Source: a virus
Lineage: Duplodnaviria; Caudoviricetes
Direction: 5' to 3' (one strand)
Length of the DNA: 64,000 bases
Virus record (IMG/VR): IMGVR_UViG_3300030202_001345
Coordinates: 858-64,857 of that record
Below the pieces are notes generated by a model that made no database searches, was not told the origin of the DNA, and saw only the letters and a list, made by a program, of their open reading frames with translations. Position numbers and translations under genes: made by a program. Below, one piece after another: positions 8,649 through 60,683 of the stretch (position 1 is the first letter of the stretch; the number at the start of each line of letters is the position of its first letter).

Positions 8649-8810
8649 TTATTTCTTTTTTTCATTTTTTAATTGTATCCATTTAGTTACAGTATAACCT
8701 ATAGTTACAATAAGTAGTAATACTTTCAGTCCCATTTCTATATCTGTGAGTGTGGTTACGCCTAGTGTTGATCCGTTTATTAAGTAAAGTTTTAAGTTTT
8801 GTATATCCAT
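8649..8810 (-). CDS. Small membrane protein (holin-like), 53 aa
   Basis: MDIQNLKLYLING...GLKVLLLIVTIGYTVTKW..KKK; hydrophobic helix plus basic tail. Confidence 0.55.
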   Translation of the reverse strand: MDIQNLKLYLINGSTLGVTTLTDIEMGLKVLLLIVTIGYTVTKWIQLKNEKKK

Positions 8811-8821
8811 TGCCTGTTAAT

Positions 8822-11800
8822 TTATTCCCATTCGTCTATATTTAGAACTGATTCTTTTTTCTTTTTCTTTTTATTCCCTGTTGTATCTCTATCCATACCA
8901 AGTTCCCAGTCTTGATAACCCATAAGCATAGAGATTCTTTGCCACATTTCTACATCATCAAATAATGCTCCATCTATATTCTGAGCTTTTCTTAAGGCTC
9001 TGTCCATAGGCACGTTTGTGGTTGCAGATATTATATTTGCCAATGCCATATAAGCCTCGTTGTCTAAACTAAACTCCATGTCATTAAACGCTCCATACTC
9101 TGCGGATATAGCAGCGCTTCTTAATTTTCTTGCTTTTGAACCTATTGTAGGTGATACGTTTAACACTTCAAATATCGCCGCGTCATAAGCTTTCTTCCCG
9201 TCTTTTTCCTGTATTTGTTTTATTTTCATTAACGTGTTTTTAACCATAGATGCTGTAGCACCGTATAATCCCATACCTCTCAATAACGAGTCAGCCATAC
9301 CATTAGCAACTCTACCAGACTTAGCCATTAGCTTATCGTCTGTTTCATCATCGCCAAACGCAATACCAAACATAGCATTTTGTATAGCGTTAAACATAAG
9401 GTTTTGTATAAATCCATAGTAAACTATTTTAGAAGCGTTTGTTTTCCAATTACCTCTGCCGTTTACTAAATCTAAATAAGCTTTCTTTTGTATTCTCATG
9501 TACTGCATAGGTGTGTTAGCAAAAGCTAATATAACCCTACCTAGATCACTAGCTTGCTGTTGGCTTATTTTATCAGTTCTACTTGACTGTTGAGAGTTTT
9601 CAGCTATCTCTCTAAAATCTCTAAAAGCTCTTTCTTCTGCTACTTTTTCAGACAAACCTTTTTTCTTATAAGTGTTTAATCTGTTTCTATAAAACGTAGC
9701 ACCACCAGAAGCTATAGCAAAACTATCTGCATACCTAGTAAAAACAAAACCTTTATTTAACATATAGTTTATTAATCCTCTACCTCCACCGGACTCTGCT
9801 ATTTCTGATTCAGATATGTTTAACTTTAAACCATTACGTCTAGAGATTAAATAATCTGAGTTCATTAACTTTAAAAAGTCTTTAGAATATTGAGGCATGT
9901 TACCTAAAGCTTTACCAGCAGCCATAGGATTATTATCTGTCCAGTTAACAAAGTTAATAGATGATATTGTCTGCAACACAGCGGATCTAGTATTTAAGAA
10001 CATGATAGCACCTACTGAATTATTAATATAGTCAAGTACTTTGTTTTCTAAATTGTTTCTTGATTTTCTATTTCTACCAGTCTTCATTCTAGATATAGTA
10101 CCCTCTAAAGCATCTCTATAGCTTTTACCAAAAGCAGCTTGAAGTTTATTTAAATTAGCTTCACTAAATATTTGATTAACATTTTCTGTCCAACCATACT
10201 GCTCTAGATATTCAGATCTTTTTACATCTCTTAATAAATTTCTAGCATCTAAAGTTAAGTTACCACTAAGCCAATCAGCCTTAGGTGGAGACCAACCAGA
10301 GTTTTTAGTAGTTAATAACAATTGATCTGCAAACGCCTCGAGCTTAGGATTATCTTTAACTAATTTATTTAAGTCTCTTAAATCTGCTTTACTTAAACCA
10401 GGAACTTCTAATCCCATCTTAGTCCACATTCTAACTCTTACAGCTGTTTCGTTAGTGAAACCAGTGTCATTAGTCTTTTTAAGATTTTTAGGTACTACAC
10501 CTAAGCTTTTTTTCAAAGCTTTAATATCTTGCGCTAGCTTAACCTGATCTTTAGAAATCATTTCTTCTGCTTTAGCAAAAGGATCATTTAAATATTTCTT
10601 ATAAAACTCTTGTTGTTTTTCTCCAACCTTACCTTTACCTAATGTTTTATAAAGTAATCCCATAAAGTCTTCAGCACCAGGAGAAACTATGTAATCAAAC
10701 CTACCTTTTCCTCTGCCTACAACTTCAGCTTTTGCTCTACCAAATACTTTATCAGCACCGATGCCTGATTTATTTTGTATTATCTCGTTAAACGTTTTGT
10801 TTAGATCAACTTGTTGTAAAGCTAGTTGGACTTTGCTTTTTACGTCTATAACATCTAAAACAGATTTAACAGCTTTAACATTTTTTACAGCATCATCTAC
10901 AAAATAAAAATCATTATAACCTTTAGCAGCCTTATCTAATATCCAGTTTGACTTTGCTGTTGGGCTACCGTTTTCTAAACCAGTAATATTTTTAAGAGGT
11001 ATGTCAATACCTATTCCTTTTAAAAACTTATGAATAGCATTAGCTGACGCTTGAGGTCTTGCTGTTAACACAAACATGTTTTCATTACCAAATTTTCCTA
11101 TAGCTTTTTTAATTCTTGGAACTAGAGGACCGGGCTTCCCGTCAATTACTTTATTAAATTCAGAAAAATCGAATTTTGCTCCTTGAGCTTCTAAGGCTTC
11201 TGAACGCTTAGCAAATTCTGTAGCATTAAGTTTACCTTTCTTGCCATTAGGCAACGTGTAAAGTACGTTAGATTTAGATCTAGCTAATGTGTCATCAAAA
11301 TCGTATACACTTATACCCTTAGTTTCTTTTTTTAATCTTCTAGCTAAAGCTAAAGCCTTATCTCTATTAGACATGTTGTTTAGTAATTCAGATTTACTAA
11401 GATCAATTTGTGATAATGTGCCTGACTTTTTAGCTAAAGCTTTATCAGCTTCATATGACTGTTTAGTTTGTTTAGGATTTGCTAATTCATATTTAGCTAT
11501 TTCTACATTAGGCTTACTAGGTTCTAATGACAACCTACCCATAGCATCTTGCAGCTGTGGTACTTCTAATTTTCTAACTGATTGACCTAGCTTTTGTGCA
11601 TTTTGTTGCATTAGCTTGTCATAAAGAGTTTCTTTAAAACCACTTTCAACTGTTACGTAATCTTTTAATTGTTTTAAATCTAAAATCATACGAGATAAAC
11701 CAGCGGTATTAGTTGTGCCACCAAGCTTATCTATAACATCTAAATATTTTTTAAACGATATAACACCTTGATAATCGTTCATTATTTTTCTACCGTCTTT

Positions 11801-27112: not shown

Positions 27113-28624
27113 CTAGTGTTTTATCCATTTAGATTTACCACGCATAACTTGTACTATCTCGTCAAGTTTAATATTTGATAATCTTATTTTAGCATTTCTT
27201 AATTTAGCATATCTATCTTTTTTAAACCTCATAACCACGTACTCTGGTTGATTGGCTCTTGTTGATAGTATTGAATATAATATTGCCGAGTACATAGCAT
27301 CTTCCGCTAGCTTAGGAACTTTAGTATCTAAGTCGTAAGCTAAGCCATCTGATATGTATTCTAGTATTATTATTTTATCTCTAAGGTTTGCAGAAAAACT
27401 TATTTTACCCTCTCTTTCATTCATGTTAAACCAACCGTTGTAGTTAGCGTATTGAGGATCCATACCATAAAGCTCGCCATAACCCGCGTATAATCCAAAA
27501 CCCCAATCCCCAAACTGTAAAAGATAACCTAACCAGGTTTCGTCTACTAATTGGTTAAAATATCTATAAGCATTTGTACCCCATCTTTCTTCTACTATAG
27601 ATGTTCCAGAAATATTAGCATCGTAAACATCTTGTATAGGAACACCTTTGCCATCTTGTAAAGGCATTCTATAAGGACTTTGAGTTAAGTTGTTTGACGG
27701 ATATATAGGGTGTTTTACACCTTGACTATCATACCAACCCATACTAACATAGTTAACATAATCTTGAGGTAGTATAACGCTTAGGTTGTGAGGTATTGTA
27801 AGCTCTTGGCTTTTAATACTTTTTAATGTATCATAACTAAACTCTTGCATAGCTCGTTTAGCAAAGAATATTAGATCAGTTCTTTTTACACTAGGTATTA
27901 ATTTACCCGCGCCAACATAAGCAACTAAAAAATTATTTATAATATCTTTTAATTTTACATAAGCATAACTACCATAATTTTCCTCAACAACATCTCCAAA
28001 CGCTTTATCATTTAATGTGGTGCCATACTTGCCTCCATCTAATTTTTTTAATTGTACTACAATATATGAGTTTTCATCAAAATTAGTAAAATACTCAAAC
28101 GTGGTAACACTGCCCCCACCACCATAAAGTAATGTACCATATATCAATTCTATCCATGAAACAGTATACTCATTAGTAGCGGCATCGTAAGTTACATTAC
28201 TTAGTCTAGCAAATCTTACACCTGCAGAACCTGGTGTCCACACAACTTGCGATCCTTCAGCTTCAAACTTCATACCAATTTTAGGTATTATTCCACCTGC
28301 TGGAACCGTAAACACGGCTTGCGCAGCACCTGGAGGAGACGCAGAAGTATCTGTGGTAGAACCTGTACCTAAAAAGCTTATTGTATTTCCGACTACTCTA
28401 AACTGATTGTTTGTGGAATTTTGCTCTTCATAACTACCTGGTAAACCAGTAATACTATTGTATATTTTAAAGTTGTTTTGATTATAGTTTTGATTACTAG
28501 GATCATCACTTAAAAATTTTAACTTAGTATCAAATGTTGTAGTAAATTCAAATTGATCAATAACAGTCTGAAATGATTGAGCTCCTTCGTAATATTGCCT
28601 ATTGTTTTCTTGTATTAATGCCAT
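27113..28624 (-). CDS. Tail ring/adaptor protein
   Basis: LPQDYVNYVS...LEYISDGL...AKLRNAKIRLSN pattern of Bacteroidetes podovirus ring proteins. Confidence 0.6.
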   Translation of the reverse strand: MALIQENNRQYYEGAQSFQTVIDQFEFTTTFDTKLKFLSDDPSNQNYNQNNFKIYNSITGLPGSYEEQNSTNNQFRVVGNTISFLGTGSTTDTSASPPGAAQAVFTVPAGGIIPKIGMKFEAEGSQVVWTPGSAGVRFARLSNVTYDAATNEYTVSWIELIYGTLLYGGGGSVTTFEYFTNFDENSYIVVQLKKLDGGKYGTTLNDKAFGDVVEENYGSYAYVKLKDIINNFLVAYVGAGKLIPSVKRTDLIFFAKRAMQEFSYDTLKSIKSQELTIPHNLSVILPQDYVNYVSMGWYDSQGVKHPIYPSNNLTQSPYRMPLQDGKGVPIQDVYDANISGTSIVEERWGTNAYRYFNQLVDETWLGYLLQFGDWGFGLYAGYGELYGMDPQYANYNGWFNMNEREGKISFSANLRDKIIILEYISDGLAYDLDTKVPKLAEDAMYSAILYSILSTRANQPEYVVMRFKKDRYAKLRNAKIRLSNIKLDEIVQVMRGKSKWIKH

Positions 28625-52073: not shown

Positions 52074-54074
52074 TTATACTGGGTCAACATCAAGAGTTCC
52101 GCTGTTGTTTACTGATACTATATATTCAGTTCCATCTGGAGACGTTAACACAAGTCCATTTCCTGCTTGTTCTATTCTTACATCTCCTTTTGTTACTTTT
52201 ATATCATTAGATGAGAGACCGTCAGCTGTTAATACAAGATTAGCGTCACTTACTATTAAATCCTTGCTATCATCTACAGTGTCTATTTTTAAATTGCTAG
52301 AGGTATCTTGATACACACTCCAGTTATAACCTCCGAGAGACGTAAGAGAATTAAATTTAATTTCATCAGTAATTAATTCACTTCGCTGCAAATCATTTCC
52401 TACTGTTACAGTAAGAGTTGCACCACCAACATCAAGTGATACTGAATCACCTGCGGTGTAGTCTGAGCCTGGGTCAACAACACTAAATGTATCAATACCT
52501 GAACCGCTAGTTATTTCATCTACTAATATAGTTAAACCAGATCCACTACCTGTAGACGCGGTTGTAGTATAAACATCACCTTCATTATATCCACTACCAG
52601 CATTTACTACTTGAAGCGCTATGTTTTCTGATTGTTGAATTCTAATAAAACCACCACTGTTATATAAACCTCCATATGGTATACCAGATTGCAACGCTAC
52701 TTCATCATCGTTAAAATCAAATGTTGGAACCGTAGGTAGTATTACTCTAGGTACTTGTCTTACAGCATTTTTAAAAACCCCGCCCTCTGTTATCATCAAC
52801 GCGTTTGCGATATCGCTATTATTACTTCCTGTGGCAACTACAAATTTTGTTCTACCTAATCCAGTCGGATTATTTTGAGACGGATATACGCTTGCATCGT
52901 TTCTATAACCTAAAGTCATACATTCAGTTGTGGCAGTTAAATCTCCACCAATATTAAAATTGTTTCGATGCGCTATATTATCGCCTCCTAAATTTGCTAT
53001 ATTATATCCAAAAGTAAATGAATTTGTTTCTGTATGTTTTAAATCGTTGTCATGTCCTACAACAAAGCTTAGTCCACCGCTTGGAGGAGCCGCGCTTCCA
53101 TCTTGAGTAGTAAGTGAGTTAGCTGAACCAATTATTATAGAGTTATTAAGACCAGCTGTACTAGCCCCAATATCATAACCCATTACATTGTTTAATCCAA
53201 TTACATGAGAGTTAGTGGAATATTTTAATACGTTACCAGATCCTACAACTGCTGAGTTGACGGATGCCTTTGTGGTGTTACCTCCACCAAAAGATACTGA
53301 TCTATCTGAATTATCAGTGATTTGATTGTTTTCACCTACGGTTAAACAATGATCAGATCCTGATATTATATCATTACTTCCTGCACCTATTATTGCTGAT
53401 GTTTCACTTACTACTGGATTAGCAGGGTTATTAGAAATTATTAATCCTTTTCTAAAAGAAACTACACCTTCAACGTCTAATCCAAAATTTGCATTAGCAG
53501 CTTTGTTTATACCTACGTGTTTACTGCTTGGGTCTATAGTTATTCCATTAGAATTTTCTATAATTTGAGAATCACCTATAACACCTTGACCACCTGCTGT
53601 CCATTTTACAATATTATTTGTAGTACCAGTTCCTGAAACAGTACCAGATGGTGCATCCGGCATAGTAAACGTTTCAATATTTACACCAGAAACATGACCG
53701 CTTGCATCTGTTGACACTGAATTGATTACATCAAAGTCATCACCAAACTGTAAGTCTGTTTGACCGCTTGTGTTTGTTCTTCCTACTACGCTGTGATTGA
53801 TTACTACGTTCTGACCTAGGTCTGGGTTAATTTCTGTGTTAATTAATAAACCACCGCTAAAATTAAGGGCTTGTGAGATTAAGTCTACGCTGCCCGTGGT
53901 CCCGCTGTTTGAAGAAATGTCTAATGTGTTAGCTGGTTGCTGCCCTTGAAAGTATGCAGAAAGCTTAGTTAACGTCACGGATTTTGTAGCGTTATTGTCT
54001 GAAATATCGCTTATTGGCATTAAGTCTCCTGCTGCCAAAGTTCCTATCTCAGGGTATGAATAAATTATTGCCAT
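52074..54074 (-). CDS. Tail fibre protein
   Basis: MAIIYSYP N-terminus; GxxN repeats; C-terminal LTSPDGT..VSVNNSG. Confidence 0.7.
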   Translation of the reverse strand: MAIIYSYPEIGTLAAGDLMPISDISDNNATKSVTLTKLSAYFQGQQPANTLDISSNSGTTGSVDLISQALNFSGGLLINTEINPDLGQNVVINHSVVGRTNTSGQTDLQFGDDFDVINSVSTDASGHVSGVNIETFTMPDAPSGTVSGTGTTNNIVKWTAGGQGVIGDSQIIENSNGITIDPSSKHVGINKAANANFGLDVEGVVSFRKGLIISNNPANPVVSETSAIIGAGSNDIISGSDHCLTVGENNQITDNSDRSVSFGGGNTTKASVNSAVVGSGNVLKYSTNSHVIGLNNVMGYDIGASTAGLNNSIIIGSANSLTTQDGSAAPPSGGLSFVVGHDNDLKHTETNSFTFGYNIANLGGDNIAHRNNFNIGGDLTATTECMTLGYRNDASVYPSQNNPTGLGRTKFVVATGSNNSDIANALMITEGGVFKNAVRQVPRVILPTVPTFDFNDDEVALQSGIPYGGLYNSGGFIRIQQSENIALQVVNAGSGYNEGDVYTTTASTGSGSGLTILVDEITSGSGIDTFSVVDPGSDYTAGDSVSLDVGGATLTVTVGNDLQRSELITDEIKFNSLTSLGGYNWSVYQDTSSNLKIDTVDDSKDLIVSDANLVLTADGLSSNDIKVTKGDVRIEQAGNGLVLTSPDGTEYIVSVNNSGTLDVDPV

Positions 54075-54121
54075 GTTTGTTTTTTTAGTTGTTATGTTTT
54101 ACATGTGCGTACCATAGTTAT

Positions 54122-54151
54122 ATATACTCACAGGTTTTGAAGCGAATTTAC
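54122..54151 (-). promoter_or_regulatory. Putative class-2 promoter GTAAAT-N14-GTGAG heading the late arm
   Basis: Upstream of the first late gene; matches the other copies. Confidence 0.5.
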
Positions 54152-54180
54152 ACTAATAATCGTATATTACAGACGTATAG

Positions 54181-54223
54181 TGACAAAAGCCTATTACTTA
54201 TATATACTATATAGCTACTGTCA
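54181..54223. promoter_or_regulatory. 43-bp operator-like element TGACA-N33-TGTCA, copy 1
   Basis: Inverted copy at 61625-61667 shares GCCTATTACT and TATACTAT. Confidence 0.6.
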
Positions 54224-54438
54224 TATAAAATTGTTATGTATAGAGAGGTATAGTGTAGCACCTCACCTTTTTATCTGTAATCCTTATTTAAAATTCGTTT
54301 TACTTTTGCGGGTTCGCCTTGTTTTCCACGTTTCGATGCGTATATACTCGTTTTATCGCGTATTTGCCCCCGCCTTTATGACTTTTCCTACGGGACTATG
54401 ACAATCTGTCACATGACATAATGACATACTAGTATATT

Positions 54439-54468
54439 ACAGACATATTACTACAATAAATGGATAAT
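54439..54468 (+). promoter_or_regulatory. Early promoter copy 1, ACAGACA-N15-TGGATAAT
   Basis: Seven copies with invariant 15-nt spacer. Confidence 0.75.
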
Positions 54469-54551
54469 ATATATGTAATCAATTAGATAATGAGAGTCAA
54501 AGCGGAATACATACTAACTAAAATAAATAAGTAAACAAAACTACACTCATC

Positions 54552-54581
54552 ACAGACAAAATATAACACTAATTGGATAAT
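54552..54581 (+). promoter_or_regulatory. Early promoter copy 2
   Basis: ACAGACA-N15-TGGATAAT. Confidence 0.8.
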
Positions 54582-54610
54582 AATATAAATACTAATAAAT
54601 AATAAATATC

Positions 54611-54841
54611 ATGAGTAAATTAAATTCTAAAAGATTCGTCGTAAGACAATCACTAATCGGTAAAAACCAAGTAATCAATGTTGAATTCAAAAGCGGAAAG
54701 ACTTTCACTTACAATCACGATAAAGTGTATGAGCTAATGAAAGATAACTTATCAAAGTTAAACTGCTGGGAAAAGTATAAGTCTTACACTTCAAGTACTT
54801 CAATTCCAAGAGTATTACAAGGTGAAGTAGAAGTATTGTAA
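54611..54841 (+). CDS. First early hypothetical protein
   Basis: 76 aa; A-rich leader; downstream of two promoters. Confidence 0.65.
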   Translation: MSKLNSKRFVVRQSLIGKNQVINVEFKSGKTFTYNHDKVYELMKDNLSKLNCWEKYKSYTSSTSIPRVLQGEVEVL

Positions 54842-54860
54842 CAAGTATTTCTACTAACTA

Positions 54861-54903
54861 AGTGGCGCGTTGAGCTGTGTAGCATCACCACTATAAATAA
54901 CGT
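54861..54903 (+). ncRNA. Putative H-type pseudoknot element
   Basis: AGTGG/CCACT stem; loop GCGTT can pair with downstream AACGT after ATAAAT. Confidence 0.3.
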
Positions 54904-54918
54904 TGAACAGAGCAATAT

Positions 54919-55022
54919 GGGTAACTACATGGACAGTAGCGTATCATACAATGGCTGCAAGCTGGCTTCGGTTGGCAGTGTAAGTTGTGTACGGCGTAGA
55001 GGTTCGAATCCTCTCTTATCCA
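54919..55022 (+). ncRNA. tRNA-like / tmRNA-TLD-like RNA 1
   Basis: Acceptor GGGTAAC/CTTATCC-A (G3-U70); T-arm AGAGG-TTCGAAT-CCTCT; long cUUCGg-capped hairpin in place of an anticodon arm. Confidence 0.6.
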
Positions 55023-55044
55023 CTAATAATAAATAAATATAACT

Positions 55045-55251
55045 ATGTCAAATTTCAAATTCAGAGGATTTATTCCTGCAGTAACTAAATACGTAAAATC
55101 AAAACCACTAGCAGAATTAGTGGCGGAAGTAATAGCTTTCGGAGTACTAATGCCATTAGCTGTTGGCGGAATAACTTTCTTCGTCTTTATGATGATAACA
55201 GGTCAAGTAGATTATTCAGCGATGGATATTAACTGTGGAATATGCTACTAA
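55045..55251 (+). CDS. Small membrane protein
   Basis: Long hydrophobic segment; C-terminal CGIC. Confidence 0.55.
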   Translation: MSNFKFRGFIPAVTKYVKSKPLAELVAEVIAFGVLMPLAVGGITFFVFMMITGQVDYSAMDINCGICY

Positions 55252-55358
55252 TGAGAAGTTATTACAGTAAACTACAACAGAGATTTATAGCTCGTGAAGA
55301 ATACTTTGACGAGCTACTCTTTGGAACTCTCAATGATGAGAACTATGACAAGCCAATC

Positions 55359-55388
55359 ACAAACAAATTCAGTAAAAAACTGGATAAT
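55359..55388 (+). promoter_or_regulatory. Early promoter copy 3
   Basis: ACAAACA-N15-TGGATAAT. Confidence 0.8.
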
Positions 55389-55547
55389 AATATAAACTAA
55401 TTAATAACTTTTAAAACCTAATAATCATGGGACATCAAAATACTTACTTACTAAAAATCTCTTTCAGAGTATACAAAAAACATTTTAACTCACTAACTCC
55501 TGAAGAAAAAAGTAATGTATGGGATATATACTATGACTTCTACTAAT

Positions 55548-55841
55548 ATGAGTGCAATAAAAACATTTACACACAGAGGCGTTGACTATGATTATCATGA
55601 GTGGACAACTTGGAACGGCAAACCTGCAAGTGGTTATACTATAACTAACCATCCAACGTTTGCAATAACTAGTCCACGAGTGCAACAACTGTCAACTCAA
55701 ACTAAAGAACAAGCTATCGCTAAGATAGATGATTACTTCGACAGAGAAGATCACTACAAAGAAATGGCTAAACTTCACGACGCTGGGTGTCAAGCGTATT
55801 ACGATTCTAAGACTAGATGGGATAATTTTACAGGCGATTAA
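55548..55841 (+). CDS. Early hypothetical protein
   Basis: Likely start MSAIKTF. Confidence 0.55.
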   Translation: MSAIKTFTHRGVDYDYHEWTTWNGKPASGYTITNHPTFAITSPRVQQLSTQTKEQAIAKIDDYFDREDHYKEMAKLHDAGCQAYYDSKTRWDNFTGD

Positions 55842-56080
55842 CATTAAATAATTAACTATGCAATTTATACTAACATGCCCTAACGGCAAAGTGATCGATA
55901 TGTCTCACTACATTTCTCAACAAATGGAAGGTGAGTTAACTAGACAAGATGTACTTAACAGAATAGAATTCTATAAATCAACTAATACAAAATAACTATG
56001 GAAGATTGGATAAATATGTACAAGACGGGTGAAATAACACTCGAAACTTTACTCGAACTACTTGGTGGTTACGTATAATC

Positions 56081-56110
56081 ACAGACAGAATAATAAATCT
56101 ATTGGATAAT
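56081..56110 (+). promoter_or_regulatory. Early promoter copy 4
   Basis: ACAGACA-N15-TGGATAAT. Confidence 0.8.
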
Positions 56111-56125
56111 AATATAAATTTAATT

Positions 56126-56314
56126 ATGCAAAACACATTCAAACAAGTTAACAAAACTACTATCAAACTAAATAATACTACCTACAAAGGTTACAACGTA
56201 GGCGATCTACCTCCTTCGTTCGGCTTTAAATACAAAGACGACAAACAAGGTAAATACCAATGGTTTAACTACAACGGTTTAACTTACATAGAAAAAACAT
56301 TATTACCATGGTAG
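56126..56314 (+). CDS. Early hypothetical protein
   Basis: ATG at 56126 just after the promoter. Confidence 0.55.
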   Translation: MQNTFKQVNKTTIKLNNTTYKGYNVGDLPPSFGFKYKDDKQGKYQWFNYNGLTYIEKTLLPW

Positions 56315-56559
56315 TTACTAATATGAAAGAATTATGTGCTTATGCAGATAATAAGCGCAAACAAGCAGCCAAAGAGCACAGGCTTAAAAACGCTCATGAA
56401 GGTTATTGTAGTGGACTTACCTCTGCCGAGTACAACCGAGTACGAATCAGTGGCAAGAAATCTTATGGAGCCAAGGCACGTAAGTTCACCCATAACCGTA
56501 TGTGGAAACATCAATCAAGATATTCAGTTAAACAATTAATAGAAATAGTAAAAAAATGA
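56308..56559 (+). CDS. Early hypothetical basic protein
   Basis: 83-aa ORF in an overlapping operon. Confidence 0.55.
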   Translation: MVVTNMKELCAYADNKRKQAAKEHRLKNAHEGYCSGLTSAEYNRVRISGKKSYGAKARKFTHNRMWKHQSRYSVKQLIEIVKK

Positions 56560-56822
56560 GCGATACAGTAACTAAATGGCATGAAATGCAAGATGAAAAC
56601 AAAGAAATAATAACAGCAGACGAGTCAGCAAAGTATATATTTTTACTAGATTTTAATGACGGTAAAGTATATAGATATGACATAAGCGTGTTATGTACAG
56701 ATGAAAACTGGTGGAATCCTGATACAGAGTCTTGTGAAGCGTTTTTATATGGAGCAGGTCACAAATTAGGTGACTGTGAATGGATGGTAACTAACAATAA
56801 AGGAATAGAATTTGGAAACTAA
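56556..56822 (+). CDS. Early hypothetical acidic protein
   Basis: 88-aa ORF with ATGA overlap. Confidence 0.55.
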   Translation: MSDTVTKWHEMQDENKEIITADESAKYIFLLDFNDGKVYRYDISVLCTDENWWNPDTESCEAFLYGAGHKLGDCEWMVTNNKGIEFGN

Positions 56823-56988
56823 TGAGTAAAATGAAAGAACTAGATTTGATTGCACAAGGTGTAGCAGATCACATGAAAGAAATCATTGAAGACAGTGTTG
56901 ATTGGCAACTAGCTGACCAACCACTTGACGGTGATGACTATCAAGAAATGAAAGAGTATGTAATAAATGTTGCACTTAATAAATTATT

Positions 56989-57018
56989 ACAAACAAAATA
57001 AATTATCTTTTGGATAAT
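56989..57018 (+). promoter_or_regulatory. Early promoter copy 5
   Basis: ACAAACA-N15-TGGATAAT. Confidence 0.8.
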
Positions 57019-57035
57019 AATATAAACAAAAAAAT

Positions 57036-57224
57036 ATGTATTGTAAATGCGGCACAGAAGTGCACCCTGTAAGATTAAAGCTAGGCTACAAAACTTGTAT
57101 GCCTTGCTCAACAACTCAAACGTACTCTTATGTACCTATCATCGAGCACAAAACAGGTAATACAATACAAATAGTTAGCCAAGAAGTAAGTGCATCAGTG
57201 CACAAAGCTTGGCGTAGAAAATAG
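57036..57224 (+). CDS. C4 zinc-finger protein (DksA/TraR-finger-like)
   Basis: CKCGTEVHPVRLKLGYKTCMPC resembles CxxCG.xI..xRL....xxCxxC. Confidence 0.55.
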   Translation: MYCKCGTEVHPVRLKLGYKTCMPCSTTQTYSYVPIIEHKTGNTIQIVSQEVSASVHKAWRRK

Positions 57225-57244
57225 CGCTAATTCGATACGGCGCG

Positions 57245-57426
57245 AGGCGGCGGCATACTGGTCACGTTAGTTGAAGGGTAAGGCGGATAAAGCTTATAGG
57301 CGATTACCGGAGCGATCACTAAGTGAAGCTCGACCGTGGTGCGTTATAAGTAGCTATAACTTCAGCAAAACAGAAAGAGCGGATAAATGACAATACTAGT
57401 TAACTACCAGTCCGTAACTGCTGCCT
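57245..57426 (+). ncRNA. Putative ~180-nt structured ncRNA of unknown class
   Basis: GC-rich intergenic; closing stem AGGCGGCGG/CTGCTGCCT; ACTGGT/ACCAGT; GTTGAAG/CTTCAGC; internal hairpins GAGC..TCAC-TAA-GTGA..GCTC and GTTATA/TATAAC. Confidence 0.6.
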
Positions 57427-57429
57427 TAT

Positions 57430-57528
57430 GGGCGTGAAATGGTTAGAAGCTAAGAACAGTAACGCACGGCGAAAGCTATGAGCAAACAACTGTGACGCTT
57501 AACGCAGGTTCGATTCCTGCCACGTCCA
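57430..57528 (+). ncRNA. tmRNA-TLD-like RNA 2 (mini-tmRNA without mRNA domain)
   Basis: Acceptor GGGCGTG/CACGTCC-A (G3-U70, A73); unstemmed D-loop AAATGGTTAG; AAGC/GCTT and ACAGT/ACTGT stems with a GAAA loop; T-arm GCAGG-TTCGATT-CCTGC. Confidence 0.7.
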
Positions 57529-57548
57529 CTAAATTAAATATAACAACT

Positions 57549-57929
57549 ATGACTAAATATGAATTAGAACAAAGGTATCTCGAAGCAGACTTTGTTTGGA
57601 ATATGCTAACTAAGTATGGCATACAAGAAATTACTACAATGCGACAAGCTAAAAATGATACAAGAGCTTTTAGAATGCCTACAGGTCAAATAATAGCGTC
57701 ATACAAATCAGGTATGGTACGTAGATGTGACAGTAGCGATAGAATATGGCAACTAAATCCTAAGTACAAAACTAAAACTAGATGGGTGTTTCTAACAGAA
57801 AATGGCTTAGAAACTAAAGAATATGAAACGTGGGCTAGAGCCGCTATATATTCTAGACTAGCTAGGTTAAACTTTATACTACAATACTACTTAAGAAATT
57901 ACAAACAAAATAATAAATCTATTGGATAA
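57549..57929 (+). CDS. Early hypothetical protein
   Basis: Real start at ATG 57549; the upstream extension in the ORF track overlaps the ncRNA. Confidence 0.6.
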   Translation: MTKYELEQRYLEADFVWNMLTKYGIQEITTMRQAKNDTRAFRMPTGQIIASYKSGMVRRCDSSDRIWQLNPKYKTKTRWVFLTENGLETKEYETWARAAIYSRLARLNFILQYYLRNYKQNNKSIG

Positions 57930-57930
57930 T
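57901..57930 (+). promoter_or_regulatory. Early promoter copy 6
   Basis: ACAAACA-N15-TGGATAAT; ATG only 5 nt downstream. Confidence 0.8.
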
Positions 57931-57935
57931 AATAT

Positions 57936-58172
57936 ATGAAAAAACCAAAAACCGTCTACGACAACTTATTGCCCGACGTTAAAAAAGCTTTGCAAACTAG
58001 TGCTAGAAAGTACAGTGCTGCAAAAAGATTAAAATATACATTAATGTCAAAGTTAATGTGGTATGAACTAACCATCAACGATATTAGAGATTTGATTAGC
58101 TACAGCGAACTAAATAGCTGGGAATTAGAAGCTTACTCTTTTATGTACGGTGATAAAATTATGAAAAAATGA
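57936..58172 (+). CDS. Early hypothetical protein
   Basis: 78-aa ORF. Confidence 0.55.
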   Translation: MKKPKTVYDNLLPDVKKALQTSARKYSAAKRLKYTLMSKLMWYELTINDIRDLISYSELNSWELEAYSFMYGDKIMKK

Positions 58173-58612
58173 ATAAAAAAATTATTACTGACGATATAAT
58201 CGACGAAAGATTGGAAGCGCGTGGTGTAGAAATTGATCTTGACCATGATAAAGCTTTAGAAAAAATACAAGATCATTATGAGTTTAGACTAGTAAGTGAT
58301 TGGAATGGCACACCTGACTACAGTATATACACTGAAACCACAGCAGATGGTTACGAAGTATGGGTTGCTACAAGCGGTGATGGTAGAAATGTATGTATAA
58401 ATGAGGATGTACACTACTATGAAAACGACTTATCAGAGAAACTAGTTGAAGCTATGACTGATTACAACGAGTTAATCTATGTAGATGATCTTGAATCTTA
58501 TTATGTTCAGGACGCGGTTACAGAAGCATATGAGTCATACTATAACGACATGAAGCAAGAAGTTGAAAACGAATTAATAGAAGAAGGATATGAACACGAA
58601 AAGTCAAATTAA
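58169..58612 (+). CDS. Highly acidic early protein
   Basis: 147 aa, very D/E-rich. Confidence 0.6.
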   Translation: MNKKIITDDIIDERLEARGVEIDLDHDKALEKIQDHYEFRLVSDWNGTPDYSIYTETTADGYEVWVATSGDGRNVCINEDVHYYENDLSEKLVEAMTDYNELIYVDDLESYYVQDAVTEAYESYYNDMKQEVENELIEEGYEHEKSN

Positions 58613-58853
58613 GCCTAAGTGGTTTAAAGGTAGTTGGTACACCGAGGGTGATACAGTTACAAATCCCTTTAGTGGCGAGTCATATCCACTAACAGGGCCA
58701 GAGTTAAGTATATACGACTTTATACAAGGTATGAACTTTGTGTTCGCCGCAACACCAAGAAATGTAAATGAACAACAGTTAAAAGATTTTCATAAAGCTT
58801 TAAACTGGTTCAGAAAACATAATATAAAAGCATACATGGTCTTATTAGACTAA
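58590..58853 (+). CDS. Hypothetical protein
   Basis: VTNPFSGE..LSIYDFI..AYMVLLD. Confidence 0.6.
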   Translation: MNTKSQIKPKWFKGSWYTEGDTVTNPFSGESYPLTGPELSIYDFIQGMNFVFAATPRNVNEQQLKDFHKALNWFRKHNIKAYMVLLD

Positions 58854-58858
58854 AAAAT

Positions 58859-58932
58859 TGCGCTGTGGAGCAGTTGGTCAGCTCGCTAGGCTCATAACCT
58901 AGAGGTCGCAGGTTCGAATCCTGCTGGCGCAC
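58859..58932 (+). tRNA. tRNA-Met (CAT), initiator-like body
   Basis: Cloverleaf: TGCGCTG/TGGCGCA, D-stem GAGC/GCTC, CTAGG-CTCATAA-CCTAG, GCAGG-TTCGAAT-CCTGC; no encoded CCA. Confidence 0.9.
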
Positions 58933-58934
58933 CT

Positions 58935-59135
58935 ATGAAATTTATAAAATATACAATAGTATGGATAAGTCAAAATCTAGCTATCCCATTTTGGGTAGTT
59001 GGACATATACACTTGTCCATACACTCGTTTCATGATCTATACGAGCTTCTTGCTAGTATAGGCATGAACTTAATAGTATTAACCGGCTTTATTATAGATT
59101 ATAAAGCACAAAACACAAATAAAAATGGCAACTAG
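58935..59135 (+). CDS. Small two-TM membrane protein
   Basis: Hydrophobic with His cluster GHIHLSIH. Confidence 0.55.
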   Translation: MKFIKYTIVWISQNLAIPFWVVGHIHLSIHSFHDLYELLASIGMNLIVLTGFIIDYKAQNTNKNGN

Positions 59136-59583
59136 AAACTTAACAATGGTCGTAGATAGACGACACGCTGAGGAATCAGACCTTGGTTTTGCAGATAATC
59201 CCTCTGTATTTAATGACAAAAGCTATGTAAATATGTATTTACATCACGATGGTTATCCTGAATGGCAAGGTGTACAAATAGCAAATTGGCTACAAACTAA
59301 TCCTAGTCAAGATGGTAGCAGATTAGCCGCTAAATTAGTTCATGATATGTACTATGACAGCTGCTACTTATACTCTGATCTATTACACATAGACCATCAA
59401 TATACTTATATTATATGGTCAGGCAAAAAAGACAGATGGGTAAGCTGTTGGGACAACTACAATAGCTATAACGTGTTTGTTTTAAAACCAGAAAAAATTA
59501 TATCTAAATATATGGACGATATGGAATACACTGATTTTGCTAACGGAAATACAAGGTATGATAAAATTACAGACATAATATAA
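59125..59583 (+). CDS. Conserved phage hypothetical protein (MATR..YxHxDGYP type)
   Basis: MATRN...MYLHHDGYPEWQG. Confidence 0.6.
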   Translation: MATRNLTMVVDRRHAEESDLGFADNPSVFNDKSYVNMYLHHDGYPEWQGVQIANWLQTNPSQDGSRLAAKLVHDMYYDSCYLYSDLLHIDHQYTYIIWSGKKDRWVSCWDNYNSYNVFVLKPEKIISKYMDDMEYTDFANGNTRYDKITDII

Positions 59584-59598
59584 ATGAATTTGGATAAT
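59569..59598 (+). promoter_or_regulatory. Early promoter copy 7
   Basis: ACAGACA-N15-TGGATAAT. Confidence 0.75.
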
Positions 59599-59607
59599 AA
59601 TAATGAA

Positions 59608-59856
59608 ATGTTTGATTTAAGCAAGTTTGATGATTATATAGATCAGTTAACTGAGTTAGTATTTGCTCGTATTATAGATAAATACGGTGACATTTACCCA
59701 TTAAACTTTACAACAAATCAAGAAGAAATATTAGTAAGTGAATTAGCTAGACTACAAACACAGCTAGCTATGCTAGAAGATAGACAAGAGTACGAAAAAT
59801 GTGCTATTGTTAAAATGAGAATAACTAAAATTGAATTAAAATTAAAAAACCTATGA
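59608..59856 (+). CDS. Protein with UVR-like C-terminal hairpin
   Basis: EDRQEYEKCAIVK resembles the UvrB/C motif; start moved downstream of the promoter. Confidence 0.5.
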   Translation: MFDLSKFDDYIDQLTELVFARIIDKYGDIYPLNFTTNQEEILVSELARLQTQLAMLEDRQEYEKCAIVKMRITKIELKLKNL

Positions 59857-60683
59857 TAAAACCTATGCTTGCACACAAGTATGATGACAGTAGAGTTGAC
59901 TGGTCTAAACCTGTGTACATACAACCAAAGCTAGACGGTGTTCGATGTGTGTTTACTAAAGACGGCGCATACTCACGTACTAGTAAAGAATTTAAAAATC
60001 TAGCTCATATTGAAGCAGAATTAATACCGTTTTTCAAAGAACGACCAGATTTTGTACTTGATGGTGAGTTATATAATCACAACTTAAAAAATGATTTCGA
60101 AAAGATTATATCATTAGTTCGTAAGCAAAAACCTACAGCAGATGATAGACTAGAAGCTAGAAGATTAGTACAGTTTCATATTTACGATTATATAGATGGC
60201 CGCTACAATAGCTACAAAACTCGTATGCAAAGCCTAGCAACATCAGATCTATATAGTCCAAGTATACAATACGTGCCTGCAAAGCTAGTTGATAGTTATA
60301 ATTATGCTAGAGAATTACATCAAGAGTTTCTTGATCAAGGTTACGAAGGTTCTATCATAAGACTAGATGGCTTATACAAGCACGGTAGGTCTTACGATCT
60401 AATGAAATTTAAAGACTTCAGCGATACTGAAGCAACCATCATAGGTTATGAATTAGGTAAGGGTAAGAGACAAGGCACGCTCGGAAAGTTCATTATGTTA
60501 GATGACGAAGGTATACAGTTCGGTTGTCCGCCGGGCAAAGGTTATACCTACAAGGATTTAGCTAATATGTTACTGAAAGTTAATGACTACATAGGTCAGC
60601 GTGCTACCTTTACTTATTTTCAACGAACTAAAGCAGGTTCATACAGACACCCGCTATTCAAATGTATTAGAAATTATGAGTAA
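59853..60683 (+). CDS. ATP-dependent DNA ligase
   Basis: KPMLA, QPKLDGVR, LDGELY, YEGSIIR, LMKFK, YRHP. Confidence 0.95.
   Translation: MIKPMLAHKYDDSRVDWSKPVYIQPKLDGVRCVFTKDGAYSRTSKEFKNLAHIEAELIPFFKERPDFVLDGELYNHNLKNDFEKIISLVRKQKPTADDRLEARRLVQFHIYDYIDGRYNSYKTRMQSLATSDLYSPSIQYVPAKLVDSYNYARELHQEFLDQGYEGSIIRLDGLYKHGRSYDLMKFKDFSDTEATIIGYELGKGKRQGTLGKFIMLDDEGIQFGCPPGKGYTYKDLANMLLKVNDYIGQRATFTYFQRTKAGSYRHPLFKCIRNYE

What the first reader, a model, noticed from the sequence alone, without database searches (positions are those of the whole stretch)
57430..57528. Mini-tmRNA: an alanyl tRNA-like domain with no anticodon and no mRNA/tag domain
Seen: a 99-nt element with acceptor GGGCGTG/CACGTCC, G3-U70 wobble, A73, a canonical T-arm, an unstemmed D-loop with GG, and a short 3-nt linker (AAC) before the T-stem. 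A ~50-nt GAAA-capped hairpin sits where tmRNA opens into its ~250-nt pseudoknot/ORF loop. Known: this layout matches the tmRNA tRNA-like domain, which AlaRS charges and SmpB binds. Inference: an early-expressed phage TLD-only RNA could sponge SmpB or EF-Tu, interfere with or replace trans-translation so phage proteins are not tagged, or act as an anticodon-less decoy against tRNA-targeting defences.
Basis: partly seen in the sequence, partly recalled or inferred. Interest (0 to 1): 0.88.

Follow-up and report, generated by a model that had tools for sequence, protein, structure and literature searches.

The report
Phage tag-less mini-tmRNA gene
A marine flavobacterial phage carries a real 99-base gene for just the tRNA-like end of the bacterial ribosome-rescue RNA (tmRNA) with no coding part, a kind reported once before in a mycobacteriophage but here conserved at one fixed locus across a large group of uncultured phages.

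Summary
Observation confirmed and the structural reading supported. Window 57430-57528 (+) has a 7-bp acceptor stem with G3·U70 and A73, an unstemmed GG loop, a 54-nt hairpin, an AAC linker and a canonical T-arm. Rfam's tmRNA model matches both ends, with 55 nt replacing 326 positions, at 34.3 bits, below the cut-off of 47. At the same locus in related phage contigs, 77-80-nt orthologues score 59-65 bits, above it.

In 80 loci chosen only by the neighbouring 62-aa gene, 57 carry the element. G3·U70 is kept in 47 of 48 distinct copies while pair 4:69 switches C-G, G-C and A-U. The hairpin's closing helix covaries. No shared tag frame. No SmpB or tyrosine integrase in the phage.

It is a tag-less, TLD-only tmRNA derivative. 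Cultured flavobacterial phages carry a full tmRNA (phi40:1) and a permuted one (Panino). The kind is known from mycobacteriophage DS6A and organelles (PMC4131195, PMC11915505). This scan also noted similar minis in other phages.

Function is inferred: probably alanylated and SmpB-bound, competing with host tmRNA. Unexplained: inserts are exchangeable modules, also found outside the element.

The parts
57430..57436 (+). Acceptor stem, 5' strand GGGCGTG (G3 of the G3·U70 wobble at 57432)
   Evidence: Sequence. Pairs with 57521-57527. Matched to tmRNA model positions 1-7. G1-C72 and G2-C71 are invariant and G3·U70 is kept in 47 of 48 distinct ORF-anchored copies.
57437..57446 (+). D-loop analogue AAATGGTTAG: no D stem, GG at 57441-57442
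   Evidence: Sequence. Aligned to the unpaired tmRNA model stretch 'GAucuGGaUUCG'. The 17-mer 57430-57446 is identical in 35 of 70 related loci.
57447..57500 (+). Insert hairpin in the place of tmRNA helix P2 plus the pseudoknot/ORF body. Closing helix AAGC (57447-57450) with GCTT (57497-57500), middle stem ACAGT (57456-57460) with ACTGT (57489-57493), tip GGC-GAAA-GCT (57468-57477)
   Evidence: Fold. All 5 pairs of the family closing helix show changes on both sides. This particular insert was found in only 1 of 70 related loci, L015. Its base motif AAGCTAAG...GACGCTT is shared with L021 and L032, which have different tips.
57501..57503 (+). Linker AAC between the insert helix and the T stem. 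Bacteroidota tmRNAs have GGAC at this place
   Evidence: Sequence. Compared with 27 bacterial tmRNAs, all with ...TGGAC before the T stem.
57504..57520 (+). T-arm GCAGG-TTCGATT-CCTGC
   Evidence: Sequence. Matched to the tmRNA model T-arm. 3 of its 5 pairs show compensatory changes across the family.
57521..57528 (+). Acceptor stem 3' strand CACGTCC (U70 at 57525) and discriminator A73 (57528). CCA is not encoded; the trailer is CTAA
   Evidence: Sequence. Most tmRNA genes of 27 Bacteroidota genomes also lack an encoded CCA.
57036..57224 (+). Conserved 62-aa Cys-rich ORF (CxC...CxxC) that anchors the locus: ORF, then an RNA-module spacer, then the mini-tmRNA
   Evidence: Translation. Relatives are encoded in 169 viral stretches. 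57 of the 80 fetched have the element just downstream on the same strand. No Pfam family.
57245..57426 (+). Structured spacer RNA abutting the element's 5' end. In other contigs it is built from modules that can also sit inside the mini-tmRNA
   Evidence: Metatranscriptome contigs cover 57243-57408, with depth up to 368 in run X16. Module sharing is shown. No Rfam match.

Best explanation
Window 57430-57528 is a functional phage gene for a tag-less, TLD-only derivative of tmRNA. It keeps the acceptor stem with the alanine identity set (G3·U70, A73), a D-loop analogue and the T-arm. Everything else in tmRNA is replaced by a hairpin.

Shown here: its anatomy, its homology to tmRNA, its conservation at a fixed locus under purifying selection, and the absence of a tag frame.

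Inferred:
1. It is transcribed within the + strand small-gene operon.
2. It is cut out by the host's tRNA-maturing enzymes (RNase P at the 5' end, 3' trimming plus CCA addition).
3. It is charged with alanine by host AlaRS and bound by host SmpB.
4. It then competes with the host's own tmRNA for SmpB, EF-Tu and stalled ribosomes. Stalled ribosomes are either not rescued by the host system, or they receive one alanine without the degradation tag. Either way the host's ssrA tagging is blunted during infection.

My odds: about 0.9 that it is a genuine TLD-only tmRNA-derived gene. About 0.4 that interference with, or tag-less replacement of, trans-translation is its main job.
For: Homology to tmRNA:
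- The Rfam tmRNA model aligns both ends of the element, with 55 nt standing in for 326 model positions, at 34.3 bits.
- Orthologues of 77-80 nt at the same locus score 65.0, 64.7, 63.9 and 59.0 bits against a cut-off of 47. They carry the bacterial-type 5' ...UUGAC motif.

Fixed locus:
- 57 of 80 loci picked only by the upstream 62-aa ORF carry the element downstream on the same strand.
- Of the 23 without it, 9 have under 600 nt of downstream sequence.

Alanine identity:
- Among 48 distinct copies, G1-C72 and G2-C71 are invariant.
- G3·U70 is present in 47 of 48 and A73 in 47 of 48.
- Pair 4:69 is C-G in 32, G-C in 13 and A-U in 3.
- A wobble pair kept while its neighbour is swapped by compensation points to selection on the wobble itself.

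Purifying selection:
- The flanking ORF is only 69-92% identical in nucleotides across 43 loci, whereas the TLD ends are identical. Those loci were found through the 3' end, so the ORF-anchored set is the fairer test.
- The closing helix has compensatory changes at 5 of 5 pairs.
- Overall pairing is 93-95%, against 74-83% in shuffles (0 of 500 reach it) and 32-55% when the partners are slid.
- There are 50 distinct closing stems in 66 RNAs.

Lineage context:
- Cellulophaga phage phi40:1 has a full-length tmRNA, at 87.6 bits and called by ARAGORN.
- Maribacter phage Panino has a permuted tmRNA, at 62.2 bits against a cut-off of 47. Its acceptor GGGGGTG/CACCTCC is the same as in one mini type.

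Not a bacterial gene copy:
- The exact 3' 22-mer occurs in only 6 contigs of 3 metagenome-assembled genomes among the species-representative genomes.
- Those genomes have their own, different full-length tmRNA.
Against: - The window's own copy is below Rfam's cut-off. Two ordinary tRNAs, whose anticodons I read by eye as alanine, reach 27.6-28.4 bits with the same model, so the margin for this copy alone is modest.
- The junction motifs seen in 27 of 27 Bacteroidota tmRNAs (5' TTGAC, 3' GGAC) are altered here to 5' TTAGAAGC and 3' TTAAC. From recall, these positions matter for SmpB binding. SmpB binding is therefore not assured.
- Other tRNA-like minis in related contigs lack G3·U70 or A73: AGGCGTG/CACGCCT-T, AGTCACA/TGTGACT, and 40-nt forms. 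Alanylation cannot explain the whole wider family.
- Under a pure SmpB-decoy model the insert should be free to shrink. Instead many copies carry 60-110-nt structured, conserved modules, which are also found outside the element.
- RNA evidence is weak. In four metatranscriptome runs, contig depth over the element is 0-5, against up to 368 just upstream. Contigs cannot show RNA ends, and DNA carry-over is not excluded.
- No alanylation, SmpB-binding or expression experiment exists for this family.
Confidence: 0.45

Rival explanations
1. RNA-processing punctuation. The element is mainly a cleavage signal. Its acceptor/T-arm/elbow shape recruits host RNase P and 3' tRNA-processing enzymes to cut the long early transcript. 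This would release the upstream structured RNA and give the downstream mRNA a short leader. Alanylation and SmpB would be irrelevant.
For: - It sits between same-strand ORFs, 205 nt after the stop of ORF 57036-57224 and 20 nt before the ATG at 57549. It directly abuts a structured spacer RNA.
- Related contigs hold many other tRNA-like minis with varied acceptor sequences, some without G3·U70 and some only 40 nt long. These look like bare minihelix substrates.
- In several contigs the element lies close to a genuine tRNA-Met.
- A 107-nt metatranscriptome contig bridges the upstream RNA into the 5' end of a relative's element, as a precursor would.
Against: - RNase P and 3' processing do not need a G·U at 3:70 or an A at 73 (general knowledge). 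Yet each is kept in 47 of 48 distinct copies while 4:69 is exchanged.
- The orthologues keep tmRNA-specific loop and junction sequence well enough to pass Rfam's tmRNA cut-off.
- Processing and a tmRNA-like role are not exclusive.
Confidence: 0.25
2. Scaffold for exchangeable RNA cargo. The conserved tRNA-like body serves mainly as a stable, correctly processed chassis, and possibly one delivered to ribosomes or SmpB. It displays interchangeable structured RNA modules, and the modules are the active parts.
For: - The body is near-invariant while inserts range from about 25 to 110 nt and fall into many unrelated families.
- Contigs with almost identical upstream sequence carry unrelated inserts, and the same insert occurs behind different upstream sequences.
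- Modules are nested. The same base carries different tips, for example the window against L021 and L032, or L019 against L023.
- 39 of 85 inserts of 25 nt or more have a match of at least 20 nt at 88% or better outside any element, mostly in the ORF-to-element spacer of other contigs. One 94-nt module matches at 97.9%.
- A loop motif GTGAGGGATCGTTATGAACT recurs, closed by different stems.
Against: - 68-70-nt members with a minimal hairpin exist and are themselves conserved, so cargo is dispensable.
- No module matches an Rfam family at gathering score in the 14 of the 70 related loci then held that fitted one call (117,766 bases; a first try with 20 sources exceeded the size limit).
- No target or partner was identified.
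- Frequent recombination at a conserved repeat could shuffle neutral sequence.
Confidence: 0.15
3. Decoy against host defences or toxins that act on tRNA acceptor ends or on tmRNA. An abundant anticodon-less look-alike would soak them up.
For: There is only indirect support. The element is phage-specific. It lies in an arm of small unknown ORFs, none of the 8 tested having a Pfam family. The family diversifies quickly.
Against: No defence system with this specificity was identified here. An anticodon-less RNA cannot decoy anticodon nucleases. The strict conservation of the body argues for interaction with conserved housekeeping partners rather than an arms race at the body itself.
Confidence: 0.08
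4. A decaying tRNA, a deleted ssrA pseudogene, or an attachment-site remnant without function.
For: The window copy is below Rfam's tmRNA cut-off. Its fold is not better than shuffles.
Against: - It is conserved at a fixed locus in 57 of 80 ORF-anchored loci.
- The body is identical where the neighbouring gene is 69-92% identical.
- Helices are maintained by compensatory change.
- No Phage_integrase (PF00589) match in the phage.
- Both halves of the acceptor stem are present, which an attachment-site remnant would not need.
Confidence: 0.02

Closest known systems
TLD-only (CDS-less) tmRNA of mycobacteriophage DS6A (tmRNA Website entry; Mao et al. 2009, cited in PMC4131195 and PMC11915505; the 2009 paper itself was not seen)
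   Same: Phage-borne. [quoted passage not shown] The same proposed action: inhibition of host tmRNA, perhaps by titrating SmpB.
   Different: - Host phylum and phage lineage are unrelated: Bacteroidota podophages against an actinophage.
- No sequence comparison with DS6A was made here.
- The present family sits at a fixed locus after a conserved 62-aa ORF. It has at least four acceptor variants and a second paralogue in the same genome. It also carries hypervariable, modular inserts that recur outside the element.
CDS-less tmRNAs of jakobid mitochondria and of Mallomonadaceae plastids (PMC11915505, passages read)
   Same: Reduction of tmRNA to its tRNA-like part. Presumed to work with SmpB without adding a tag.
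   Different: Those are organellar genes that serve the organelle's own ribosomes, with a matching SmpB. Here a virus encodes the RNA, no SmpB is found in the phage, and the host has its own complete tmRNA.
Full-length phage tmRNAs of flavobacterial phages: Cellulophaga phage phi40:1 / Calle (standard form; Calle's tmRNA is listed in PMC8776804) and Maribacter phage Panino (permuted form)
   Same: Same broad phage-host world. The acceptor GGGGGTG/CACCTCC of Panino equals that of one mini type. The 3' trailer CCA-CTAA is the same.
   Different: They keep an mRNA-like part: phi40:1 is 362 nt at 87.6 bits with an ARAGORN-called tag, and Panino matches RF04321 at 62.2 bits. The window's phage has only the TLD.
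tRNA-like processing signals
   Same: Acceptor/T-arm mimic placed between cistrons on one transcript.
   Different: Such signals need no alanine identity. Here G3·U70 and A73 are conserved.

Membership tests
tmRNA (Rfam RF00023), tRNA-like domain | 7-bp acceptor stem with G3·U70 and discriminator A73 (alanine identity) | tested here: met
   Sequence at 57430-57436 and 57521-57528. G3·U70 is kept in 47 of 48 and A73 in 47 of 48 distinct ORF-anchored copies.
tmRNA (Rfam RF00023), tRNA-like domain | T-arm with a GGUUCGAnUCC-type loop, plus a D-loop analogue without a D stem and no anticodon arm | tested here: met
   Alignment to the model. ARAGORN and the Rfam tRNA model at gathering score call no tRNA here.
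tmRNA (Rfam RF00023), tRNA-like domain | Score at or above the curated gathering score (47 bits) | tested here: not met
   The window copy scores 34.3 bits. Four syntenic orthologues score 59.0-65.0 bits and two score 31.7-36.6. Membership of the window copy therefore rests on orthology, not on its own score.
tmRNA (Rfam RF00023), tRNA-like domain | Conserved junction motifs 5' (U)UGAC and 3' GGAC next to the T stem | tested here: not met
   Present in 27 of 27 Bacteroidota tmRNAs, in phi40:1 and in Panino. The window copy has TTAGAAGC and TTAAC instead. GGGGGTG-type orthologues have TTGAC and GGAAG. Many type-1 relatives have TAGAC and TAAC.
tmRNA, canonical (whole molecule) | mRNA-like domain with resume codon, tag reading frame and stop, plus pseudoknots | tested here: not met
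   Only 55 nt lie between the two TLD halves. No reading frame or tag-like ending is shared in three-frame translations of 66 members (read by eye). ARAGORN calls no tmRNA. So it is not a canonical tmRNA.
TLD-only / CDS-less tmRNA (DS6A type) | tmRNA-derived tRNA-like domain alone, without a tag, as a conserved gene | tested here: met
TLD-only / CDS-less tmRNA (DS6A type) | Alanylation, SmpB binding, and inhibition of host trans-translation | not testable with these tools
   No experiment was possible. The phage encodes no SmpB, so it would depend on the host's.
Canonical tRNA (Rfam RF00005) | Cloverleaf with D stem and anticodon arm | tested here: not met
   No ARAGORN call. No RF00005 match at gathering score. 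At the E-value threshold the best match of the clan at this place is the tmRNA model. The segment after the GG loop varies freely, with no conserved D-stem partner.
tRNA-like RNA-processing signal | Cleavage by RNase P or 3' tRNA-processing enzymes at its borders within a polycistronic transcript | not testable with these tools
   The intercistronic position on the same strand is met. Contig-level RNA data cannot show ends.

The most novel reading that the evidence does not exclude
The conserved alanine-accepting tmRNA-like body is a chassis on which these phages mount interchangeable structured RNA modules. The same modules are shuffled between the inside of the mini-tmRNA and the spacer RNA just upstream. 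The locus would then be a recombining 'RNA cassette array'. The tRNA-like body would give the cargo tRNA-type processing and stability, and perhaps SmpB/EF-Tu-mediated access to ribosomes.
Probability: 0.15. Interest if true: 0.8.

Novelty: new variant of a known kind. Interest (0 to 1): 0.55.

Why it matters
Phage genes for a tag-less tmRNA stub have been mentioned in print for a single mycobacteriophage. The papers I found also give only one functional observation, inhibition of tmRNA in E. coli. The 2025 tmRNA database screened RefSeq viruses only.

Here the same kind of RNA is a fixed-locus, strongly conserved gene in a large group of marine flavobacterial podophages. The anchor gene is found in 169 viral stretches.

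Related phages carry the full, permuted and stub forms of the same RNA. That makes a natural series for asking what phages gain from touching the host's ribosome-rescue system. Possible answers are blocking it, replacing it without the degradation tag, or only borrowing its tRNA-like shape.

Standard annotation (ARAGORN, Rfam at gathering score) misses the window's copy. Such genes are therefore probably under-counted in phage genomes.

Tried and rejected
Readings and searches that led nowhere:
- Hidden tag ORF in the insert. Three-frame translations of 66 members show no shared frame or hydrophobic ending. Rejected.
- Two-piece or permuted tmRNA with the upstream RNA as coding piece. The two acceptor halves are in standard order and the insert is closed by its own hairpin. 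The same upstream class goes with different inserts. Rejected for this locus.
- Copy of the host's ssrA ends, or an attachment site. Among the species-representative genomes, the exact 3' 22-mer is found only in 6 contigs of 3 metagenome-assembled genomes. Bacteroidota tmRNAs have different ends. No PF00589 match. Rejected.
- Search for a cultured phage with the element. BLAST of the window copy and of a 78-nt orthologue against 50,697 phage records gave no match covering 80% of the query. The tmRNA model found no stub in any of the 5 cultured relatives searched: a full-length tmRNA in phi40:1, no match in 2 records, and only T-loop-sized fragments of 17-18 nt in the other 2.
- Pfam on the anchor ORF and 7 neighbours: no family. 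My recalled likeness of the 62-aa ORF to TraR/DksA-type zinc fingers is unsupported.
- Sigma-70-type promoter and terminator scan of 54000-60000: 36 promoter-like sites against 27.0 ± 5.1 expected, and 3 terminator-like sites against 2.4. This is not informative.

RNA runs:
- Parts of the stretch without cover prove nothing.
- Depth over the element is 0-5 in four metatranscriptome runs.
- The habitat labels of the small-share RNA runs are not used as evidence.

Supplements are closed. The supplementary tables of PMC11915505 (taxonomic breakdown of the database) could list further viral CDS-less entries that I could not see.
Full report
WHERE THE WINDOW COMES FROM. The window is bases 858-64857 of a 64,857-bp virus record that CheckV rates complete. 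Its large terminase is 62% identical to that of an uncultured podovirus. It is 44% identical to Flavobacterium 'elemo' phages, 37% to Cellulophaga phages and 32% to a Tenacibaculum phage. The host is therefore very probably a member of the Flavobacteriaceae. The element lies on the + strand in an arm of small + strand ORFs (54.1-64 kb), opposite the large - strand genes.

THE OBSERVATION.
- Acceptor GGGCGTG (57430-57436) pairs with CACGTCC (57521-57527), including G3·U70.
- A73 is at 57528.
- The unstemmed loop AAATGGTTAG is at 57437-57446.
- A 54-nt insert follows, then the linker AAC at 57501-57503.
- The T-arm GCAGG-TTCGATT-CCTGC is at 57504-57520.

The insert folds into an imperfect hairpin with a GGC-GAAA-GCU tip. 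Taken alone the evidence is thin. The fold is not better than shuffles (z = -1.61; 15 of 200 fold as well). ARAGORN and Rfam at gathering score report nothing here. With permissive thresholds the Rfam tmRNA model aligns both ends end to end, with 55 nt in place of 326 model positions. The score is 34.3 bits against a cut-off of 47. Two ordinary tRNAs in bacterial genomes, whose anticodons I read by eye as alanine, reach 27.6-28.4 bits with the same model. That score alone would therefore not settle the matter.

THE FAMILY. An exact-pattern scan of IMG/VR found 22 stretches with the 5' 17-mer plus T-loop and 64 stretches with the 3' 23-mer. In all of them the tRNA-like body is almost invariant. 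The middle ranges from about 25 to 110 nt and falls into many unrelated sequence families. The helix that closes the insert is present throughout:
- 58 of 66 distinct RNAs have at least 5 consecutive pairs there, against 32% of shuffled controls.
- There are 50 different stem sequences.
- On a MAFFT alignment of 68 sequences, all 5 pairs of this helix show changes on both sides.
- In that alignment 93.1% of cells are paired, against 82.6% in shuffles (0 of 500 reach it) and 32-52% when partners are slid.

These loci were ascertained through the body's own sequence, so its invariance there is partly circular.

AN UNBIASED SAMPLE. The 62-aa Cys-rich ORF just upstream (57036-57224) is conserved in 43 of those 70 loci at 69-92% nucleotide identity. 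I used its protein to fetch loci independently of the RNA. This found 169 viral stretches that encode a relative, and the best 80 were kept.
- A covariance model built from the first alignment finds the element downstream on the same strand in 57 of the 80.
- Of the other 23, 9 have under 600 nt of downstream sequence. Fourteen show a T-loop motif that belongs to other tRNA-like RNAs or true tRNAs.
- The 57 matches make 48 distinct sequences with four main acceptor stems: GGGCGTG/CACGTCC (30), GGGGGTG/CACCTCC (13), GGGAGTG/CACTTCC (3) and GGACGTG/CACGTCC (1). One further copy has T instead of A at 73.
- G1-C72 and G2-C71 never vary, and G3·U70 is kept in 47 of 48. Pair 4:69 is C-G (32), G-C (13) or A-U (3). 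Three T-stem pairs also change by compensation. That alignment was fitted to the model, which favours pairing counts.

A wobble pair that is retained while its neighbour is swapped three ways is what selection for the alanine identity element predicts.

LINK TO tmRNA. The GGGGGTG-type orthologues are 77-80 nt long. They read GGGGGUGA(c/u)uUGGUaUUGAC...GGAAG-T-arm-CACCUCCA. They score 65.0, 64.7, 63.9 and 59.0 bits with the Rfam tmRNA model, above its cut-off, with 11-13 nt in place of about 305 positions. Two other types score 36.6 and 31.7 bits. So the locus holds a graded series, from stubs that Rfam itself accepts as tmRNA to the more derived type in the window.

Cultured relatives add two more forms:
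- Cellulophaga phage phi40:1 has a 362-nt standard tmRNA, at 87.6 bits and called by ARAGORN with a 22-residue tag. The record does not annotate it. Bartlau et al. list one tmRNA for the Calle phages (PMC8776804, passages read).
- Maribacter phage Panino has a circularly permuted tmRNA, matching RF04321 at 62.2 bits against a cut-off of 47. Its acceptor is the same GGGGGTG/CACCTCC.

Bacterial genomes do not hold the window's type. The exact 3' 22-mer occurs in only 6 contigs of 3 metagenome-assembled genomes, and those genomes have their own, different full-length tmRNA. In 27 Bacteroidota tmRNAs the ends read GGGGCUGAC(c/u)GGUUUUGACAGC...UGGAC-T-arm-CAGCUCCA. Most of these genes also lack an encoded CCA, like the phage element.

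WHAT IT IS NOT.
- Not a canonical tRNA: it has no D stem and no anticodon arm.
- Not a canonical tmRNA: no frame or tag is shared in three-frame translations of 66 members (read by eye), and the window's genome has no other tmRNA-model match.
- Not an attachment-site remnant or pseudogene, given conservation, compensatory change and the absence of a PF00589 integrase.

The phage encodes no SmpB.

HOW IT MOST LIKELY WORKS. Shown: the anatomy, the homology, the selection on the alanine identity pair, and the lack of a tag. Everything beyond that is inferred. The RNA is probably matured like a tRNA, receives CCA, is alanylated by host AlaRS and binds host SmpB. Without a resume codon it can at most donate one alanine to a stalled chain, or simply occupy SmpB, EF-Tu and ribosomes. 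Either would blunt the host's ssrA tagging.

[quoted passage not shown] I did not see the original 2009 paper.

Against this reading:
- The window type has lost the GAC/GGAC junction found in 27 of 27 bacterial tmRNAs.
- Related contigs carry other tRNA-like minis without G3·U70, including 40-nt forms made of only acceptor, GG loop and T-arm.
- Many inserts are long and structured rather than minimal.

The main rival is a plain RNase P / 3'-processing signal that punctuates the early transcript. The two roles could coexist.

RNA DATA. The best DNA holders of the stretch are runs labelled marine metagenome, 5 of which may be the source. Six metatranscriptome runs held 10-16% of the sampled words, and I laid four of them. 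Their contigs cover the upstream ORF and the spacer RNA at 57243-57408, with depth up to 368 in X16. Depth over the element itself is only 0-5.

Two contigs in X16 carry the 5' or 3' end of the element joined to a relative's different insert. One 107-nt contig runs from the spacer RNA into the element. This is compatible with transcription of a precursor. However, contigs cannot show RNA ends, and DNA carry-over is not excluded.

UNEXPLAINED: MODULAR INSERTS.
- Contigs with nearly identical upstream sequence carry unrelated inserts, and one insert occurs behind four different upstream classes.
- Inserts are nested, with the same base and different tips.
- Among 133 element instances (91 distinct), 39 of 85 inserts of 25 nt or more have a match of at least 20 nt at 88% or better outside any element. 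Most of these lie in the ORF-to-element spacer of other contigs, and one 94-nt module matches at 97.9%.
- No module matches an Rfam family at gathering score in the 14 loci searched.

This suggests a recombining array of RNA modules around a conserved tRNA-like body. I have no tested function for it.

NOVELTY AND VERDICT. The kind is known: TLD-only or CDS-less tmRNA in phage DS6A, jakobid mitochondria and Mallomonadaceae plastids. The 2025 database paper screened RefSeq viruses and names only DS6A among phages. My literature searches found no description of this flavobacterial-phage family. Subscription journals and supplements were not covered.

Earlier notes of this scan report similar TLD-only minis in other phages, so within the scan this is a recurring kind. 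What is new here is:
- the size and fixed synteny of the family;
- the clean evidence for selection on G3·U70;
- the series of full, permuted and stub forms in related phages;
- the modular inserts.

I rate it a new variant of a known kind, of moderate interest.

Noticed in passing
window 54919-55022 (+): There is a second tmRNA-TLD-like RNA in the same genome. Its acceptor is GGGTAAC/CTTATCC, with G3·U70, A73 and a C7·C66 mismatch. The loop is TACATGGACAG and the T-arm AGAGG-TTCGAAT-CCTCT. The family model scores it at 36.5 bits. Relatives in L020, L029 and L027 have the T stem GTGGG/CCCAC, which is compensatory. Unlike type 1, its 60-nt hairpin is conserved.
   Followed up: partly
window 57245-57426 (+), and the ORF-to-element spacers of L121-L200: The spacer between the 62-aa ORF and the mini-tmRNA is a string of stem-closed RNA modules. 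The modules differ between contigs and are exchanged with the inside of the mini-tmRNA. Metatranscriptome contigs cover 57243-57408, with depth up to 368 in one run. It matches no Rfam family.
   Followed up: partly
L004:~8700-8905, L015, L028, L041, L070 (upstream of their mini-tmRNAs): A larger RNA of about 200 nt is built as ...GTAAATAGCTAGACGAGTAGCTTAATTAGG, variable hairpin, ACACATAAGTGAATTGCTAGCGGGAACTAGGTCAGG, variable hairpin, AGGCTACCGACGGGTA. It ends in a T-arm TGAGG-TTCGAAT-CCTCA followed by CTAGTTAC, only 4-5 nt before the mini-tmRNA. This looks like another tRNA-like-ended RNA of unknown function.
   Followed up: no
L048:7474-7513(-), L069:150-189(-), L069:3672-3741(-), L014:5952-6033(-), L063:12695-12788(-), L016:2376-2466(-): Further tRNA-like minis occur in related contigs. 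They include 40-nt forms made only of a 6-bp acceptor, an AATGGTTAA loop and a T-arm. Others have acceptors AGGCGTG/CACG(T/C)CT-T, AGTCACA/TGTGACT-A or AGACAT/ATGTCT-A, which lack the alanine wobble. Nearly all are followed by CTA, mostly CTAA or CTAC.
   Followed up: partly
L201 (Maribacter phage Panino, PP540027.1 ~27590-27800): Panino's tmRNA is circularly permuted. The T-arm and 3' acceptor strand come first, and the 5' strand GGGGGTGATTGGATTTGAC follows about 35 nt later. It matches RF04321 at 62.2 bits. The tmRNA feature annotated in the record (27557-27889) overlaps tRNA-Asp and tRNA-Thr, so it seems misplaced.
   Followed up: yes
L087 (Cellulophaga phage phi40:1, KC821612.1 26803-27164, - strand): This record holds a full-length standard tmRNA, at 87.6 bits and with an ARAGORN tag AQIEANMEAVNAILNLEVAVGV*. 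It is not annotated in the record, and a small 'hypothetical protein' CDS is annotated across it on the other strand. The predicted tag does not end like the host-type ...YALAA.
   Followed up: partly
window 57036-57224 (+): A 62-aa Cys-rich ORF (MYCKCG...CMPCS, that is CxC...CxxC) is 77-98% identical in protein across the 80 loci fetched, out of 169 matching viral stretches. It is always placed just before the RNA modules and the mini-tmRNA. It has no Pfam family.
   Followed up: partly
window 54440, 54553, 56082, 59570 (+): A repeated promoter-like CAGACA-N17-GATAAT occurs in the + strand small-gene arm. The two copies at 54439 and 54552 share a 31-nt pattern, with 0 matches expected by chance.
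   Followed up: partly
L031:2634-2802(-), L045:81-285(+): An extra copy of the 5' acceptor strand (GGGCGTGAAGCA...) followed by a module lies directly upstream of a complete mini-tmRNA. It looks as if a tandem copy had lost its 3' half, which would be a footprint of recombination between copies.
   Followed up: no
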